From Escherichia phage vB_EcoM_SHAK7858, in the sequence record OR594183: DNA of 44,517 nt; one strand, written 5' to 3'. A program made the translations under genes and the position numbers. Numbering within the stretch: the first letter of the stretch is position 1; each line of letters begins with the position of its first letter. Below the pieces are notes generated by a model. That model had not been told where the DNA came from and searched no databases. It worked only from the letters and a program-made list of their open reading frames with translations. Positions 14,133 through 41,856 of this stretch are shown here, in pieces.

Positions 14133-14239
14133 GTAGTGTGCTAGAATAATTTTGCGCCTAGTGTCGCACACGAAAAGCGGGTGGTTCCCGTCTGGCGCAT
14201 TTCCTTTAACCAGTAACCTCTTAACCAAAGGATTAAAGA

Positions 14240-38431: not shown

Positions 38432-39181
38432 ATGAGTAACAAAAACGAAGTATTCGAGTACCTGATTGATCAACTACGGCAGCAGGTAAATAAGAAAGAT
38501 GTCACATCTTTCAATGTGTCTGTGCAGATATCCGACCTTGATGAGGTCAAGCAGGTAATTCACAACCTACAGCAGCATATCGCAGGTAAGGATGACGAAA
38601 TACGTGCGCTGAAAGACAGTTTACGGCAGCAGGTAAATAGCAACCAGTGCGAAGACCTGGCGCATGAGGTGCAGTCACTAAAGAATCAGTTACGTGATGC
38701 TTCGGCGCTGGTGGCGGAGTTGCAGGAAGACAACATTAAGAAATCCGACCATATATCACATCTGACCGGGCAATTGTCCGCATATCGCAATGATGCGTTG
38801 CGCTTTCAAGCGCAAGTCGGGGACCTGGTAAAACGACTGGCTAAGGTCACTGGCGACGAGTCTGTGCAGATTAAGGAGTTGACGCTCGCGCTAGATAGTT
38901 TAGATAACGAGGTTATGTGTCTTCGTTCAATCGTTGACCTGGACCCTAAAGGCGCGATTGGGTACATCCGGCGGGCAAATAGTGCAATGACTGACACCCT
39001 GCGCCGCCAATACCTTAGCAAAGCACTTGAGGAACTCGGATGTAAGGATGCGCCAGAACAATCCGGTTGCCGAAAGGAAGACGCTCAACTACCTGTATGC
39101 TCGTGCATTCCGGCTCACTGCGGAACTTACTACGGCAACACTGTAGTCTGTGATAACTGTGGTGGAGCTATAACCGAATGA
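38432..39181 (+). CDS. Coiled-coil protein with C-terminal Cys-rich (zinc-ribbon-like) tail
   Basis: Heptad-like Gln/Leu/Glu-rich N-terminal two-thirds; CSCIPAHCG...CDNCG at the C-terminus; shares a 28-aa motif with the ORF at 41656. Confidence 0.5.
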   Translation: MSNKNEVFEYLIDQLRQQVNKKDVTSFNVSVQISDLDEVKQVIHNLQQHIAGKDDEIRALKDSLRQQVNSNQCEDLAHEVQSLKNQLRDASALVAELQEDNIKKSDHISHLTGQLSAYRNDALRFQAQVGDLVKRLAKVTGDESVQIKELTLALDSLDNEVMCLRSIVDLDPKGAIGYIRRANSAMTDTLRRQYLSKALEELGCKDAPEQSGCRKEDAQLPVCSCIPAHCGTYYGNTVVCDNCGGAITE

Positions 39182-39381: not shown

Positions 39382-39566
39382 TTATGGTGCAGAGATATAC
39401 CTACGACCAGATATTCGGGTTTACTCCTGATGTTGAGGGCGTGTTAGTGCTTTACGAAGATTACGCGAAACTTGAAGCTGAGTTACAGAAATACAAAGAC
39501 CAGTACCCTGATTACGTCGAGTGCGCGAACTGTGGGTCGGTTACACATGTGGAGGGGGTGGAGTGA
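39378..39566 (+). CDS. Hypothetical small protein (62 aa)
   Basis: ORF with CANCG motif. Confidence 0.4.
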   Translation: MIMVQRYTYDQIFGFTPDVEGVLVLYEDYAKLEAELQKYKDQYPDYVECANCGSVTHVEGVE

Positions 39567-39859
39567 TGTCGTTAGCAACTGACATCCTGAAACGAAGCGG
39601 CCTTGCGCCGCTGTCACCGAGAGCGAAGACACGTATACACAAGCGTCGCCGTAACGTGCTGTACCCAGAGATACAAGAACGGCGTAAAGCTATCCGCGCC
39701 TGTGGATTCCAGAACGGAAAGGCCGTGAATCTAGGAGAGTTTAAAACACAGGAACGCGCGGCAATCGCTAATCGGTTATTTAATTACTGGAAATCGCTCG
39801 GATACGATGATATTCCGACTAAACCGCAGAGACGACAATACATCTGGCGTCATAAATAA
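39566..39859 (+). CDS. Hypothetical basic protein (97 aa)
   Basis: ORF with SD ggaggggg; start chosen at the ATG rather than the earlier track start. Confidence 0.4.
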   Translation: MSLATDILKRSGLAPLSPRAKTRIHKRRRNVLYPEIQERRKAIRACGFQNGKAVNLGEFKTQERAAIANRLFNYWKSLGYDDIPTKPQRRQYIWRHK

Positions 39860-39889
39860 ACCGTTATTAAGATAATTCCTAACCGTGCT

Positions 39890-39929
39890 ATCCTCCAGTT
39901 ACTGCATACTTAATACGCACCTGGAGGAT
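39890..39929 (+). promoter_or_regulatory. Perfect 9-bp inverted repeat (atcctccag ... ctggaggat) whose 3' arm contains the holin Shine-Dalgarno
   Basis: Arms separated by 22 nt; GGAGGA lies in the 3' arm, 6 nt before the TTG start at 39935. Confidence 0.45.
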
Positions 39930-39934
39930 TCATC

Positions 39935-40243
39935 TTGGATAAATTTACTGAAACAGTGACGGGGTGGCTTCTCGCTGCCGCATTAGCTGGTGGGGTAATA
40001 GGCTTACGGCAACACAAAGCCACTATTACCGGCCCTGTAGATGCTCTCTGTTTTCTCGCCACTGGCTTTGCGTGCGCCGTATTCGGTGCGCCTCTCGCCG
40101 CTCAATGGTTCGGTATCGCAGGTGAACGCGAAATAGCGGGCCTTGGATTCATCATTGCTATTCTCTGGATGCCAATTTATTCACGTCTCTCTGGCATTGT
40201 CGCTGGAGAATACATCGCACGTCGCGGAGGTGGTAATGAATGA
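39935..40243 (+). CDS. Holin (three predicted TM segments), TTG start
   Basis: 102 aa with three hydrophobic helices and a charged C-terminus; precedes a second membrane protein and the lysozyme. Confidence 0.55.
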   Translation: MDKFTETVTGWLLAAALAGGVIGLRQHKATITGPVDALCFLATGFACAVFGAPLAAQWFGIAGEREIAGLGFIIAILWMPIYSRLSGIVAGEYIARRGGGNE

Positions 40244-40508
40244 GTTATTCTGGTTTGGTGGTATGCTCGCAATCGGGAGCACATCGCTGTTTAACGTATA
40301 CCACCCCAGCGTAGATGATGGCCTGTTCGGGCGTGTGCTTTATATTCTGACTGCTATTGTCTGCGCCGCCGGATGTATCCACCTGTTACAGGGCAGCATG
40401 TCACCTACGCTGCCTGAGACATTAATTACATTAGTTGCGCTGCGTCAGATTCGTCAGGCGTGGCTGTCGTACGGAGGACATAAGCGTGTCTCGAAACATT
40501 TCAGATAA
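40236..40508 (+). CDS. Small membrane protein (second holin or antiholin-like component)
   Basis: Two hydrophobic helices; ATGAATGA overlap with the holin stop; SD ggagg. Confidence 0.45.
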   Translation: MNELFWFGGMLAIGSTSLFNVYHPSVDDGLFGRVLYILTAIVCAAGCIHLLQGSMSPTLPETLITLVALRQIRQAWLSYGGHKRVSKHFR

Positions 40509-41001
40509 TGGACTTAGCCATGACTATGTTCGTAGCGTTTTAGAATACAACCCTGACACAGGATTATTCACGTGGCTTAAGACGGTTAGTTCAAAAGCCC
40601 CTAAAGGGACTGTGCCTGACGGGATAGACCCGGACGGGTATAAAGTAATCATGCTCAAAGGTAAATACCTACGGCAACACAGGCTTGCATGGTTTTATAT
40701 GACCGGAGAGTGGCCGATAGGGCAGATAGACCACCGGAACGGGGTAAGAGACGATAATAGGTTTTGTAACCTGAGAGAATGTGATTCGCAGGATAACAAC
40801 CGCAACCGTGGGCTGTCGCGCAACAACACCAGTGGGGTATCAGGAGTCCATAGACAGCAAGGGAAATGGATGGTAAGAATCCGTTTGCAAAAAGGTGTGC
40901 GCAAGTTTTTCGGTTACTTCGATGACCTTGAGTTCGCTGAGTTAGTAGCTAGCGAAGCCCGAGATAAATATCACAAGGAGTTCTCTTTATGCGCTCGATG
41001 A
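40486..41001 (+). CDS. HNH homing endonuclease with AP2-like DNA-binding domain, GTG start
   Basis: QHRLAW...IDHRNG..DDNR..NLRECD..NNRN HNH core followed by GVSGVHRQQGKWMVRIRLQKGVRKFFGYFDD; SD ggagg 8 nt before the GTG. Confidence 0.8.
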   Translation: MSRNISDNGLSHDYVRSVLEYNPDTGLFTWLKTVSSKAPKGTVPDGIDPDGYKVIMLKGKYLRQHRLAWFYMTGEWPIGQIDHRNGVRDDNRFCNLRECDSQDNNRNRGLSRNNTSGVSGVHRQQGKWMVRIRLQKGVRKFFGYFDDLEFAELVASEARDKYHKEFSLCAR

Positions 41002-41474
41002 GTGACAACGGCCTCAAGTTTACTGCGGCTTGGGAAGATTTCCGTGGGACCGCCTACCGCGCGACACCTTCGGAAAAATACTTAACCATAGGCTACGGAA
41101 GCTATGGCCCTCATGTGTATGAAGGACAGACCATCACACCAGGGCAAGGCCTCCTGTTACTGAATCGTGATATGGCTAAAGCCGTTGCTGCGGTCGATGC
41201 GGCAGCACACCATTCGCTTACACAGGCGCAGTTCGACGCTGTGTGTGACCTGGTATACAACGCAGGTGCTGGTGTGATTGCTGCTACTACCGGCACGGGT
41301 AAGGCACTGCGTTCTGGTGATATTGCAACGCTGCGGGCTAAGCTGGCGCTGTTCATCAACCAGAACGGCAAACCGTTACTAGGCCTGCGTCGCCGTACCG
41401 CCGGTCGTCTGGCGCTGTTCGACGGTAAACCGTGGCAAGAGGCAGAGGCTATCGGGCGCGCGGTGAAAGGTTGA
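40989..41474 (+). CDS. Endolysin, lysozyme-type muramidase
   Basis: N-terminal catalytic pattern (E in WEDF, D/T, TIGYG) reminiscent of phage lysozymes; SD aaggag; terminator downstream. Confidence 0.7.
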   Translation: MRSMSDNGLKFTAAWEDFRGTAYRATPSEKYLTIGYGSYGPHVYEGQTITPGQGLLLLNRDMAKAVAAVDAAAHHSLTQAQFDAVCDLVYNAGAGVIAATTGTGKALRSGDIATLRAKLALFINQNGKPLLGLRRRTAGRLALFDGKPWQEAEAIGRAVKG

Positions 41475-41540
41475 CACCTAAGACTAATCCGACGATACTT
41501 AAATCACCTCCTGCTCCATCCCTCTGCTCTCCAGTTTTAT

Positions 41541-41570
41541 CCCGGCCCTGACCCAGCCGGGATTTTTTTT
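41541..41570 (+). terminator. Rho-independent terminator after the endolysin gene
   Basis: cccggc-cctgaccca-gccggg followed by a T8 run. Confidence 0.7.
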
Positions 41571-41592
41571 ATCTATTTTCTGTGATGACTAG

Positions 41593-41621
41593 TTGACTAT
41601 TATCCTCGACCCTATTATATT
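41593..41621 (+). promoter_or_regulatory. Sigma70-like promoter (TTGACT-N17-TATATT) carrying two CTATTAT half-sites
   Basis: Hexamers and spacing; followed by an acaacgagaacggag leader. Confidence 0.45.
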
Positions 41622-41655: not shown

Positions 41656-41856
41656 ATGGGCAACGTATCGACGATAGAAATAACCGAAGAACTCGAAGTT
41701 AAATGTATCGCATCAGCTATAATAGGGAATGGTTCGGTGGAAAAACTACAGATGAGGGCTGCTGCGGGCTACATACGCAGGGCTAATAGCGCGCAGACTG
41801 ATGTTTTACGTAAACGTTACCCCGTGAAAGCGTTAGAAATACTGGAGAATAACTAA
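41656..41856 (+). CDS. Hypothetical protein (66 aa) sharing a motif with the 38432 ORF
   Basis: GYIRRANSAQTDVLRKRYPVKALE matches GYIRRANSAMTDTLRRQYLSKALE. Confidence 0.45.
   Translation: MGNVSTIEITEELEVKCIASAIIGNGSVEKLQMRAAAGYIRRANSAQTDVLRKRYPVKALEILENN

What the first reader, a model, noticed from the sequence alone, without database searches (positions are those of the whole stretch)
40486..41001. HNH-AP2 homing endonuclease wedged between the holin genes and the endolysin
A clear HNH core plus AP2-like DNA-binding domain starts at a GTG inside the end of the second holin-like gene and ends inside the endolysin start region. A free-standing homing endonuclease in this position suggests a recent mobile insertion into the lysis cassette, and its overlaps with both neighbours may couple its expression to lysis timing.
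Basis: partly seen in the sequence, partly recalled or inferred. Interest (0 to 1): 0.55.

Follow-up and report, generated by a model that had tools for sequence, protein, structure and literature searches.

The report
Homing endonuclease inserted in endolysin start
A selfish HNH-type homing endonuclease gene has inserted into the first ten codons of this E. coli phage's endolysin gene, taking its start signal and bringing a replacement start; it is a good but ordinary example of a known kind of mobile gene.

Summary
ORF 40486-41001 (+, GTG, 171 aa) starts 23 nt inside holin 2 and ends 13 nt inside the endolysin. It hits Pfam HNH_3 (E 2e-12) and PHROG 99 (E 1e-62). The protein alone gives no Pfam AP2 hit. 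However, 45 of 66 aligned homologs do, the family profile hits plant AP2 structures (E 2e-9) and I-HmuI (E 3e-8), and a confident AlphaFold model superposes on AtERF1 (1.2 Å).

The window is a Kagunavirus-like coliphage. Of 144 related records, one carries this gene and two phages carry a 50%-identical lineage at the same site. 112 records have an uninterrupted junction.

The gene is not wedged between genes. In insert-less relatives the endolysin starts at this same GTG (MSRNISDNGL...). The insert sits in frame after codon 10, and its 3' end supplies a new ribosome-binding site, ATG and recoded N-terminus.

About 610 nt (~40512-41120) are foreign. From ~40560 on they are ~96% identical to Salmonella Jerseyvirus S102, inside a backbone ~100% identical to an insert-less Kagunavirus. 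The same 120-nt endolysin tract travels with the gene in both genera. dN/dS is 0.05.

The mobile-insertion reading is supported. Orthologs are already annotated as homing endonucleases, so novelty is low. Cleavage is untested.

The parts
39935..40243 (+). Holin 1 (102 aa), first gene of the lysis cassette
   Evidence: phrog_2359 holin, E 3.7e-29. Annotated as holin or class II holin-like in relatives.
40236..40508 (+). Holin 2 (90 aa). Its last 23 nt overlap the start of the endonuclease gene.
   Evidence: phrog_2508 holin, E 2.9e-33. Protein identical to those of DUEC01 and 22664BS2.
40473..40478 (+). GGAGGA ribosome-binding site, 7 nt upstream of GTG 40486. It serves the endolysin in insert-less relatives and the endonuclease here.
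   Evidence: Read from the sequence. Identical in the insert-less phages 22664BS2 and Bas72, where the endolysin starts at this GTG.
40486..40515 (+). Captured endolysin leader: codons 1-10 (MSRNISDNGL) of the ancestral endolysin, now the N-terminus of the endonuclease. Nucleotide identity to insert-less alleles ends at 40511.
   Evidence: Alignments. The insert-less endolysins begin MSRNISDNGLHFTAAFEGFRG. Distant family members align only from about residue 10.
40486..41001 (+). Free-standing HNH(HNN)-AP2 homing endonuclease gene, 171 aa
   Evidence: Pfam HNH_3 E 2.2e-12. PHROG 99 E 1e-62. 97% aa identical to the DUEC01 'HNH homing endonuclease'. dN/dS 0.05 against DUEC01.
40678..40803 (+). 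HNH (beta-beta-alpha-metal) nuclease core, residues 65-106. D82, H83 and N104 align with I-HmuI D74, H75 and N96.
   Evidence: Pfam stretch 65-106. D82, H83, N104 and N107 are invariant in 66 homologs. Profile alignment to I-HmuI 1u3e, E 2.7e-8.
40822..40974 (+). AP2-like DNA-binding domain (about residues 113-163): three strands plus a helix
   Evidence: Profile hits to AP2 structures. AlphaFold strands 121-124, 127-133 and 139-145 and helix 148-162. Foldseek match to 1gcc at rmsd 1.2 A. No direct Pfam AP2 hit.
40512..41120 (+). Foreign tract of about 610 nt: the endonuclease body plus about 120-130 nt of recoded endolysin 5' coding sequence. It is embedded in a Kagunavirus backbone. The right crossover lies between 41118 and 41128.
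   Evidence: Sliding identities and alignment. In the first 114 aligned nt of the endolysin the window matches S102 at 112/114 and insert-less 22664BS2 at 67/114; beyond column 150 the values are 73% and 90%.
40975..40980 (+). AAGGAG ribosome-binding site inside the 3' end of the endonuclease gene, 8 nt upstream of the relocated endolysin ATG
   Evidence: Read from the sequence. The junction is conserved in all carriers, including metagenomic relatives.
40989..41474 (+). Endolysin (161 aa, T4-lysozyme-like) with a relocated start and recoded N-terminus, MRSMSDNGLKFTAAWEDFRG
   Evidence: Pfam Phage_lysozyme E 4.7e-24. Translations.
41539..41571 (+). Intrinsic terminator closing the holin-holin-endonuclease-endolysin unit
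   Evidence: 8-bp GC-rich stem followed by U8, -13.8 kcal/mol, z -2.1. No promoter or terminator match on the + strand inside the cassette.

Best explanation
ORF 40486-41001 is a free-standing homing endonuclease gene of the HNH(HNN)-AP2 family. It homes to the 5' end of the T4-lysozyme-type endolysin gene of Guernseyvirinae phages.

Anatomy (shown). The element sits in frame after codon 10 of the endolysin. The endonuclease is therefore translated from the endolysin's original ribosome-binding site and GTG, which overlap the end of holin 2. The element's 3' end carries a new ribosome-binding site, an ATG and recoded N-terminal codons, so a complete endolysin is still encoded, overlapping the endonuclease stop codon.

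Mechanism (inferred). The gene is expressed late with the lysis genes. In a mixed infection the enzyme binds an insert-less endolysin allele through its AP2-like domain and N-terminal beta domain, and nicks or cuts near codons 10-40 with the HNH centre (D82/H83/N104). Recombinational repair from the carrier genome copies in the gene together with 55-130 nt of flanking endolysin sequence. The carrier allele is immune because the site is split by the insert, recoded in the co-converted tract, or both.

History (shown by comparison). This window is a Kagunavirus backbone that acquired the element, plus about 120 nt of foreign endolysin sequence, from an unsampled donor related to the Salmonella Jerseyvirus S102 group.
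For: Domains: HNH_3 E 2.2e-12; PHROG 99 E 1e-62; family profile against I-HmuI E 2.7e-8 and against AP2 structures E 1.8e-9; AlphaFold model pLDDT 89.8 with an AP2 fold; catalytic D82/H83/N104 invariant in 66 homologs.

Sporadic presence: only 1 of 144 related records covers the insert. 112 records have an intact insert-less junction. 14 of 353 Jerseyvirus-type records carry lineage A. 18 records carry lineage B, comprising 15 Salmonella and 3 Escherichia records, RefSeq duplicates included.

Same site in two genera with near-identical genes, although the holins are only ~40-55% identical in nucleotides.

Exact junctions: the insert-less endolysin starts at the same GTG.

Mosaic flanks: left of 40512 the window is ~100% identical to insert-less 22664BS2; 40560-41117 is ~96% identical to S102; right of ~41128 it is Kagunavirus-like again. 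The same 120-nt foreign endolysin tract accompanies lineage A in Jerseyvirus (S102 against insert-less S100: 74/114, then 96%). Lineage B in the Kagunavirus BUCT825 brings about 55 nt of Jerseyvirus-type endolysin.

Purifying selection: 23 synonymous against 5 non-synonymous differences from DUEC01, dN/dS 0.05.

Decay stage: Bas74 retains a 38-codon remnant.

More distant relatives (65-78% identity) also lie directly upstream of a Phage_lysozyme gene with the same 13-nt overlap.

Family precedent: HNH-AP2 is a described homing endonuclease family (PMC10448857). The HNN-AP2 boxes HRLAW, WP, DH, DNR and NLRE described for Xanthomonas phages are all present (PMC2248197).
Against: No cleavage activity, target site or biased inheritance has been shown for this protein or its orthologs, and I found no paper on them. 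The mosaic pattern could also arise from ordinary homologous recombination between co-infecting phages. The protein itself misses the Pfam AP2 model. For lineage B in Jerseyvirus the downstream endolysin sequence is essentially native (SETP13 against S100 is high throughout), so recoding cannot be the general source of immunity. Expression late in infection, alongside the lysis genes, leaves little time for homing. No RNA structure supports obligatory translational coupling.
Confidence: 0.8

Rival explanations
1. Passive passenger. The gene is of homing-endonuclease descent but no longer drives its own spread, or never did at this site. It and the adjoining endolysin segment are shuffled among co-infecting Guernseyvirinae by ordinary homologous recombination through the conserved holin and endolysin flanks.
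For: Recombination boundaries on both sides lie in homologous sequence. Phage genomes of this group are described as mosaic (PMC8425127). Carriers are few: about 4% of records per lineage in Jerseyvirus and under 3% in Kagunavirus. A decayed copy exists in Bas74.
Against: Catalytic residues are intact and invariant. Purifying selection is strong, dN/dS 0.05. Two lineages have each crossed a genus boundary carrying only short flanking tracts of 55-130 nt. A whole clade is found repeatedly at the same endolysin position in otherwise different phages. This much site fidelity is hard to obtain without a site-specific break.
Confidence: 0.13
2. Domesticated accessory gene. The nuclease serves the phage, for example by cutting competitor phage genomes (marker exclusion), helping DNA packaging as terminase-associated HNH proteins do, or tuning endolysin translation and lysis timing as an upstream cistron.
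For: It is placed in the lysis operon and overlaps both neighbours. It is under purifying selection. The remnant in Bas74 keeps both translational junctions. This benefit is not exclusive of homing.
Against: It is absent from the great majority of close relatives, which lyse and package without it. It lies about 3.5 kb from the end of the window and is not next to a terminase gene. There is no second HNH copy in the window. No RNA structure sequesters the endolysin start.
Confidence: 0.06
3. Intron- or intein-borne endonuclease. The ORF lies inside a self-splicing element that interrupts the endolysin.
For: The ORF is fused in frame to the first 10 endolysin codons. Phage lysin genes elsewhere are known to hold group I introns (from my own knowledge).
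Against: No Rfam intron or ribozyme match in 40200-41300, even at E<=1. The ORF ends in a stop codon. The endolysin restarts in a different reading frame with its own ribosome-binding site, ATG and a duplicated N-terminus, so no splicing is needed. There are no intein motifs.
Confidence: 0.01

Closest known systems
Annotated orthologs at the same locus: Escherichia phage vB_Ec_DUEC01 XOE93288.1 'HNH homing endonuclease', and Salmonella Jerseyvirus S102 AXC39668.1 'homing endonuclease' together with phages S103-S142, vB_StyS-sam and dunkel
   Same: 97% (DUEC01) and 93.5% (S102 group) amino-acid identity. Same position between holin 2 and the endolysin, the same 23-nt and 13-nt overlaps, and the same recoded endolysin 5' tract.
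   Different: The window's copy differs from each by 4-5% in nucleotides (dS 0.24-0.28). The S102-type copies have a different 5' segment of about 75 nt, shared with lineage B. Those records carry annotation only; I found no functional study or description of the start-codon capture.
HNH(HNN)-AP2 free-standing endonucleases: the Xanthomonas phages Xp10, OP1 and Xop411 (PMC2248197); the family of Magnani et al. 2004 as cited in PMC10448857; and the IPA-HNH genes of vibriophage ICP1
   Same: Same two-domain architecture. Same sequence boxes (HRLAW, WP, DH, DNR, NLRE, then an Asn-rich helix). Free-standing, sporadic, and with decayed copies in relatives. Xp10 49L/50L is 45% identical.
   Different: Those genes are dispersed between genes. 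Here the element is fused in frame to the target gene's first codons and supplies a substitute start for the target. The ICP1 genes are too divergent for the Pfam HNH_3 model, whereas this one matches it.
I-HmuI (PDB 1u3e), the intron-encoded HNH homing endonuclease of Bacillus phage SPO1
   Same: The N-terminal beta domain and HNH core are homologous at profile level (E 2.7e-8; profile positions 33-122 against chain residues 24-120). D74/H75/N96 correspond to D82/H83/N104.
   Different: I-HmuI is intron-encoded, and its C-terminal DNA-binding modules are a helical and helix-turn-helix type, not AP2. From my own knowledge it nicks one strand. Whether the window enzyme nicks or cuts both strands is unknown.
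Free-standing homing endonucleases of T-even phages (SegG, SegE, MobE) and the nuclease-marked recombination boundaries described in PMC10448857
   Same: Free-standing genes beside essential, conserved genes. They spread in mixed infections with co-conversion of flanking markers, producing mosaic boundaries at the nuclease gene, which matches the pattern.
   Different: They belong to other nuclease families (GIY-YIG for the Seg proteins). They usually lie in intergenic positions with their own starts, whereas this one uses its target gene's start codon.

Membership tests
HNH endonuclease, Pfam HNH_3 (PF13392) | Match to the family model above its gathering score | tested here: met
   46.8 bits against a cut-off of 24.8, E 2.2e-12, residues 65-106 covering model positions 4-46 of 46. 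All 66 aligned homologs also match.
HNH endonuclease, Pfam HNH_3 (PF13392) | Intact beta-beta-alpha-metal catalytic residues (Asp-His general base pair and the distal metal-binding Asn) | tested here: met
   D82, H83, N104 and N107 are invariant in 66 homologs. They align with I-HmuI D74, H75, N96 and N99. The model is confident across this region.
AP2 DNA-binding domain (PF00847) | Match of the protein itself to the Pfam AP2 model | tested here: not met
   No AP2 hit for the full protein or for the C-terminal 66 aa, even at E<=10.
AP2 DNA-binding domain (PF00847) | Homology at profile level and the three-strand-plus-helix fold | tested here: met
   45 of 66 aligned homologs hit PF00847, best E 1.2e-10. 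The family profile hits WRI1 (E 1.8e-9), TEM1 (4e-6), ERF096 and AtERF1. The model has strands 121-124, 127-133 and 139-145 and helix 148-162. The top PDB fold matches are all AP2 domains at rmsd 1.2-1.6 A and probability 0.99-1.0, although Foldseek E-values are weak (0.02-0.2) because the domain is small.
Free-standing homing endonuclease gene | Sporadic presence or absence among close relatives, at one fixed site | tested here: met
   Only 1 of 144 Kagunavirus-type records covers the insert, and 112 records have an intact junction. 14 of 353 Jerseyvirus-type records carry lineage A. 18 records carry lineage B across both genera. Every copy lies at the same codon of the endolysin.
Free-standing homing endonuclease gene | Horizontal transfer with co-conversion of flanking target sequence | tested here: met
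   The parentage switches at 40512 and at ~41118-41128. The same 120-nt foreign endolysin tract accompanies lineage A in both genera, and a tract of about 55 nt accompanies lineage B into Kagunavirus.
Free-standing homing endonuclease gene | Not inside an intron or intein | tested here: met
   No Rfam intron match. The ORF has a stop codon, and the endolysin restarts separately in another reading frame.
Free-standing homing endonuclease gene | Site-specific cleavage of the insert-less allele and nuclease-dependent super-Mendelian inheritance | not testable with these tools
   This needs biochemistry and phage crosses. I found no published assay for this clade.

The most novel reading that the evidence does not exclude
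This endonuclease clade may be a specialist of phage lysozyme-type endolysin genes that installs itself as the leader cistron of its target. By capturing the endolysin's native start and moving the endolysin's ribosome-binding site and ATG into its own 3' end, it would make clean loss difficult: deletions must keep both ends, as in the 38-codon Bas74 remnant. It could also change endolysin dosage or lysis timing, so that a selfish element becomes wired into the lysis clock. Two lineages, A and B, compete for and recombine at the same site.
Probability: 0.25. Interest if true: 0.45.

Novelty: new member of a known kind. Interest (0 to 1): 0.3.

Why it matters
The window adds one more member to a known family whose orthologs are already labelled as homing endonucleases in public records, so the finding is not surprising in itself.

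Its value is as a clean natural example. The insert-less, insert-bearing and decayed alleles are all available in cultured coliphages (22664BS2 and Bas72; this phage, DUEC01 and BUCT825; Bas74). The junctions are defined to the nucleotide, the co-conversion tracts are short and measurable, and two endonuclease lineages compete for one site across two phage genera. That makes target-site mapping, homing crosses and the effect on lysis timing directly testable.

There are two practical consequences. Genome annotators should be aware that endolysin start sites differ between carrier and non-carrier phages. The lysis cassette is also a recombination hot spot in phages that are being considered for therapy.

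Tried and rejected
1. Intron or intein: Rfam on the whole window at gathering scores and on 40200-41300 at E<=1 found no intron or ribozyme. The stop codon and the frame change exclude an intein.

2. Direct Pfam AP2 hit: none, even at E<=10. AP2 had to be established through homologs, a profile search and the predicted fold.

3. Other HNH paralogs in the window, which might indicate a dispersed family: none by tblastn.

4. Endonuclease remnants in the Kagunaviruses whose match spans about 165 nt more (phiWAO78-1, Bas76, fTaEco03): the extra DNA lies downstream of the endolysin, or is a duplication upstream of holin 1, and is not at the insertion site. A true remnant was found only in Bas74.

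5. Internal promoters or terminators that would uncouple the gene from the lysis operon: consensus matches are no more frequent than in shuffled sequence, and there are none on the + strand between holin 1 and the endolysin apart from one weak 9/12 promoter-like match at 40851.

6. RNA structure masking either translation start, which would force translational coupling: energies are no better than shuffles (z +0.97 and -0.16).

7. A native donor of the 120-nt endolysin tract among metagenomic relatives (L013, L015, L017): none matches it closely (60-87% per 30-nt bin), so the donor lineage remains unsampled.

8. Literature describing this insertion: searches on Jerseyvirus, Kagunavirus, Jerseyvirinae, HNH and homing endonuclease found only generic mentions of 'putative homing endonuclease'.

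Full report
**1. What is at the coordinates**

The + strand ORF listed as 40435-41001 has a well-placed start at GTG 40486, with a GGAGGA at 40473-40478 seven nt upstream. From that GTG it encodes 171 aa and stops at TGA 40999-41001.

Its neighbours are as follows.
- Upstream: holin 1 (39935-40243; phrog_2359, E 4e-29) and holin 2 (40236-40508; phrog_2508, E 3e-33).
- Downstream: a T4-lysozyme-type endolysin (ATG 40989-41474; Pfam Phage_lysozyme, E 5e-24).

An AAGGAG at 40975-40980 lies 8 nt before the endolysin ATG. An 8-bp GC stem followed by U8 at 41539-41571 closes the unit. No convincing promoter or terminator lies inside it.

**2. What the protein is**

- Pfam HNH_3 matches residues 65-106 (46.8 bits against a cut-off of 24.8, E 2.2e-12). 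PHROG 99 'HNH endonuclease' matches residues 4-167 (E 1e-62).
It holds at greater depth.
  - The protein search returned 270 homologs, many with precomputed PF00847 plus PF13392. In an alignment of 66 homologs, 45 hit AP2 individually.
  - A profile of that alignment hits solved AP2 domains: WRI1 (E 1.8e-9), TEM1 (4e-6), ERF096 and AtERF1. Through profile positions 33-122 it also hits the homing endonuclease I-HmuI (1u3e, E 2.7e-8).
  - An AlphaFold model built on the alignment is confident (pLDDT 89.8, pTM 0.79). It shows three strands (121-124, 127-133, 139-145) packed on a helix (148-162). Its best PDB matches are all AP2 domains; for 1gcc the rmsd is 1.2 A over 48 columns with probability 1.0.
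- D82, H83, N104 and N107 are invariant in the family. They align with I-HmuI D74, H75, N96 and N99.
- The boxes HRLAW, WP, DH, DNR and NLRE, described for the 'HNN-AP2' free-standing endonucleases of Xanthomonas phages, are all present (PMC2248197). HNH plus AP2 is a recognised homing endonuclease architecture (PMC10448857).

**3. Presence and absence in relatives**

The window is a Kagunavirus-like (Guernseyvirinae) coliphage.

- Megablast of 39800-41600 found 144 phage records. Only one, vB_Ec_DUEC01 (95.1% identical), covers the insert, and there the gene is annotated 'HNH homing endonuclease'. The others lack about 500 nt.
- A 201-nt probe spanning the uninterrupted holin 2-endolysin junction of 22664BS2 is matched contiguously in 112 records.
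- tblastn found 93.5%-identical proteins at the same position in 14 Salmonella Jerseyvirus records: the S102 group, vB_StyS-sam and dunkel. I call this lineage A.
- The same search found a second lineage, B, about 50% identical. It occupies the same position in the Jerseyviruses SETP13, SETP7, AG11, SB3 and others, and in the Kagunaviruses BUCT825 and ZCEC5.
- Of 353 records matching the S102 lysis region, 14 carry lineage A. Most of the rest span 757 nt instead of 1257, which means the site is empty.

**4. The insertion is inside the endolysin gene, not between genes**

In the insert-less Kagunaviruses 22664BS2 and Bas72 and the insert-less Jerseyvirus S100, the endolysin itself starts at the position of GTG 40486, overlapping holin 2. 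It begins MSRNISDNGLHFTAAFEGFRG in Kagunavirus and MSNRNISNNGIKFTAAFEGFRG in S100.

In the window those ten codons (MSRNISDNGL, 40486-40515) head the endonuclease. Nucleotide identity to the empty allele ends at 40511. The endolysin restarts at 40989 as MRSMSDNGLKFTAAWEDFRG, in a different reading frame.

Every carrier of either lineage has this arrangement. So do more distant metagenomic relatives (65-78% identity). These lie directly upstream of a Phage_lysozyme gene with the same 13-nt overlap and a conserved ...FSLCAR*/MR(T/S)(M/I)S junction.

Family members from other loci align only from about residue 10. That fits a leader taken from the endolysin.

No intron or ribozyme is detected, and the stop codon and frame change exclude an intein.

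**5. Mosaic flanks**

Sliding identities give the following picture.

| Region of the window | Identity to the Kagunavirus backbone (insert-less 22664BS2) | Identity to Jerseyvirus S102 |
|---|---|---|
| Left of 40512 | ~100% (49-50 of 50 per bin over ~800 nt) | 40-55% |
| 40560-41117 | gene absent; only ~60% in the endolysin part | ~96% |
| Right of ~41128 | ~90% | ~73% |

- In the first 114 aligned nt of the endolysin, the window matches S102 at 112/114 and 22664BS2 at 67/114.
- The same holds in the other genus. S102 against its insert-less sibling S100 is 74/114 in this tract and 96% afterwards. Lineage A therefore carries one and the same foreign endolysin tract of about 120 nt into both backbones. 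This is the classic signature of co-conversion.
- Lineage B looks native to Jerseyvirus, since SETP13 against S100 is high throughout. It brought about 55 nt of Jerseyvirus-type endolysin into the Kagunavirus BUCT825.
- The native source of the lineage A tract was not found among the relatives sampled.

**6. Is the gene functional, and what is its life cycle?**

- Against DUEC01 there are 23 synonymous and 5 non-synonymous differences (dN/dS 0.05). Against S102 the ratio is 0.17, inflated by a swapped 5' segment. The protein is therefore under constraint.
- The gene differs from DUEC01's copy (dS 0.24) far more than the adjoining holin genes do (~99.5% identical). This points to separate acquisitions or later conversion.
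- The S102-type genes share their first ~75 nt with lineage B (TADKLREVLHYDPDTG). The window and DUEC01 have SHDYVRSVLEYNPDTG instead. The two lineages have therefore recombined at the shared site.
- Phage Bas74 holds a decayed lineage B copy. It is a 38-codon ORF made of the first 28 and last 10 codons, joined at a GTTTTCGCG microhomology. It still bridges holin 2 to the relocated endolysin start.

**7. Mechanism**

Shown:
- the domains and intact catalytic residues;
- the exact junctions;
- the sporadic distribution;
- cross-genus transfer with short co-converted flanks;
- purifying selection;
- a decayed copy.

Inferred:
- late expression from the former endolysin start, coupled to holin 2;
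- nicking or cutting of empty endolysin alleles near codons 10-40 in mixed infection;
- repair that copies in the gene and its flank;
- immunity of the carrier allele because the site is split or recoded.

Recoding cannot be the whole story, because lineage B keeps a native downstream sequence in Jerseyvirus. RNA folding gives no sign that either start is structurally masked, so obligatory translational coupling is unsupported.

**8. Rivals**

- Passive spread by general recombination cannot be excluded without biochemistry or crosses. It fits poorly with the site fidelity of a whole clade, the short flanks and the strong constraint.
- A domesticated role in packaging, exclusion or lysis tuning is unlikely to be essential, given the gene's absence from most relatives. 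Such a role is compatible with homing.
- An intron or intein origin is rejected.

**9. Novelty and verdict**

Orthologs are already annotated as homing endonucleases at this locus, and the family is described. This is a new member of a known kind.

The start-codon capture, the shared 120-nt tract, the competition between two lineages and the Bas74 remnant were not found in the literature searched. They are refinements and not a new principle.

Interest is about 0.3.

Noticed in passing
L011 (Escherichia phage Bas74, PQ850627) 987-1103: A 38-codon ORF (VSRNISDNGLTADKLREVLHYDPDTGVF|ANHKLREGAL*) is a deletion remnant of the lineage B endonuclease gene, joined at a GTTTTCGCG microhomology. It still starts at the old endolysin start and still overlaps the relocated endolysin ATG. 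In the record it is annotated only as a hypothetical protein from 1009.
   Followed up: yes
L004 (Salmonella phage S102) 1495-1575, compared with window 40486-40560: The S102-type lineage A genes share their first ~75 nt (codons 11-26, TADKLREVLHYDPDTG) with the 50%-identical lineage B genes. The window and DUEC01 have a different segment (SHDYVRSVLEYNPDTG). This implies recombination between two competing endonuclease lineages at one site.
   Followed up: partly
L013, L015, L017 (Logan metagenome contigs), endonuclease at 2501-~3010: Endonucleases 65-78% identical to the window's sit directly upstream of Phage_lysozyme genes in other phage backbones, with the same 13-nt overlap and a conserved FSLCAR*/MRT(M/I)S junction. 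L017 has an entirely different upstream gene and an Rz-like (DUF2570) gene downstream. L018 is next to an IS605-type TnpB element.
   Followed up: partly
window 14151-14215 (+): Rfam int-alpA sRNA match just above the gathering score (36.6 against 35.8 bits, E 5e-4). It is the only Rfam hit in the window.
   Followed up: no
window 38432-39181 and 41656-41856 (+): Two ORFs on either side of the lysis cassette share a motif: GYIRRANSAMTDTLRRQYLSKALEELG and GYIRRANSAQTDVLRKRYPVKALEILE. This suggests a duplicated or shared domain of unknown function.
   Followed up: no
window 39521-39859 (+): The gene just upstream of holin 1 (phrog_9632, unknown function) has no Pfam hit. Its C-terminal half (…GKAVNLGEFKTQERAAIANRLF…) looks by eye like the strand-helix part of an AP2 or integrase-type DNA-binding domain. 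This was not tested.
   Followed up: no
L009 (Escherichia phage fTaEco03, MT711528) 436-735: About 300 extra nt upstream of holin 1 include a short ORF annotated 'putative antiholin/holin class II'. It appears to be a partial duplication of the start of holin 1.
   Followed up: no
window 40550-41300, compared with L001 (DUEC01): The window and DUEC01 are ~99.5% identical across the holin genes but only ~93-95% across the endonuclease gene and ~84-90% in the middle of the endolysin. The two E. coli carriers therefore did not simply inherit the cassette from a recent common ancestor.
   Followed up: partly
L003 (Bas72), L008 (phiWAO78-1), L007 (BUCT825), L005 (ZCEC5): Public annotations of this locus are inconsistent. 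The endolysin is called from an internal start in Bas72 and phiWAO78-1. The BUCT825 endonuclease is split into two CDSs although the ORF is continuous. The ZCEC5 endonuclease is not annotated at all and runs to the end of the record.
   Followed up: partly
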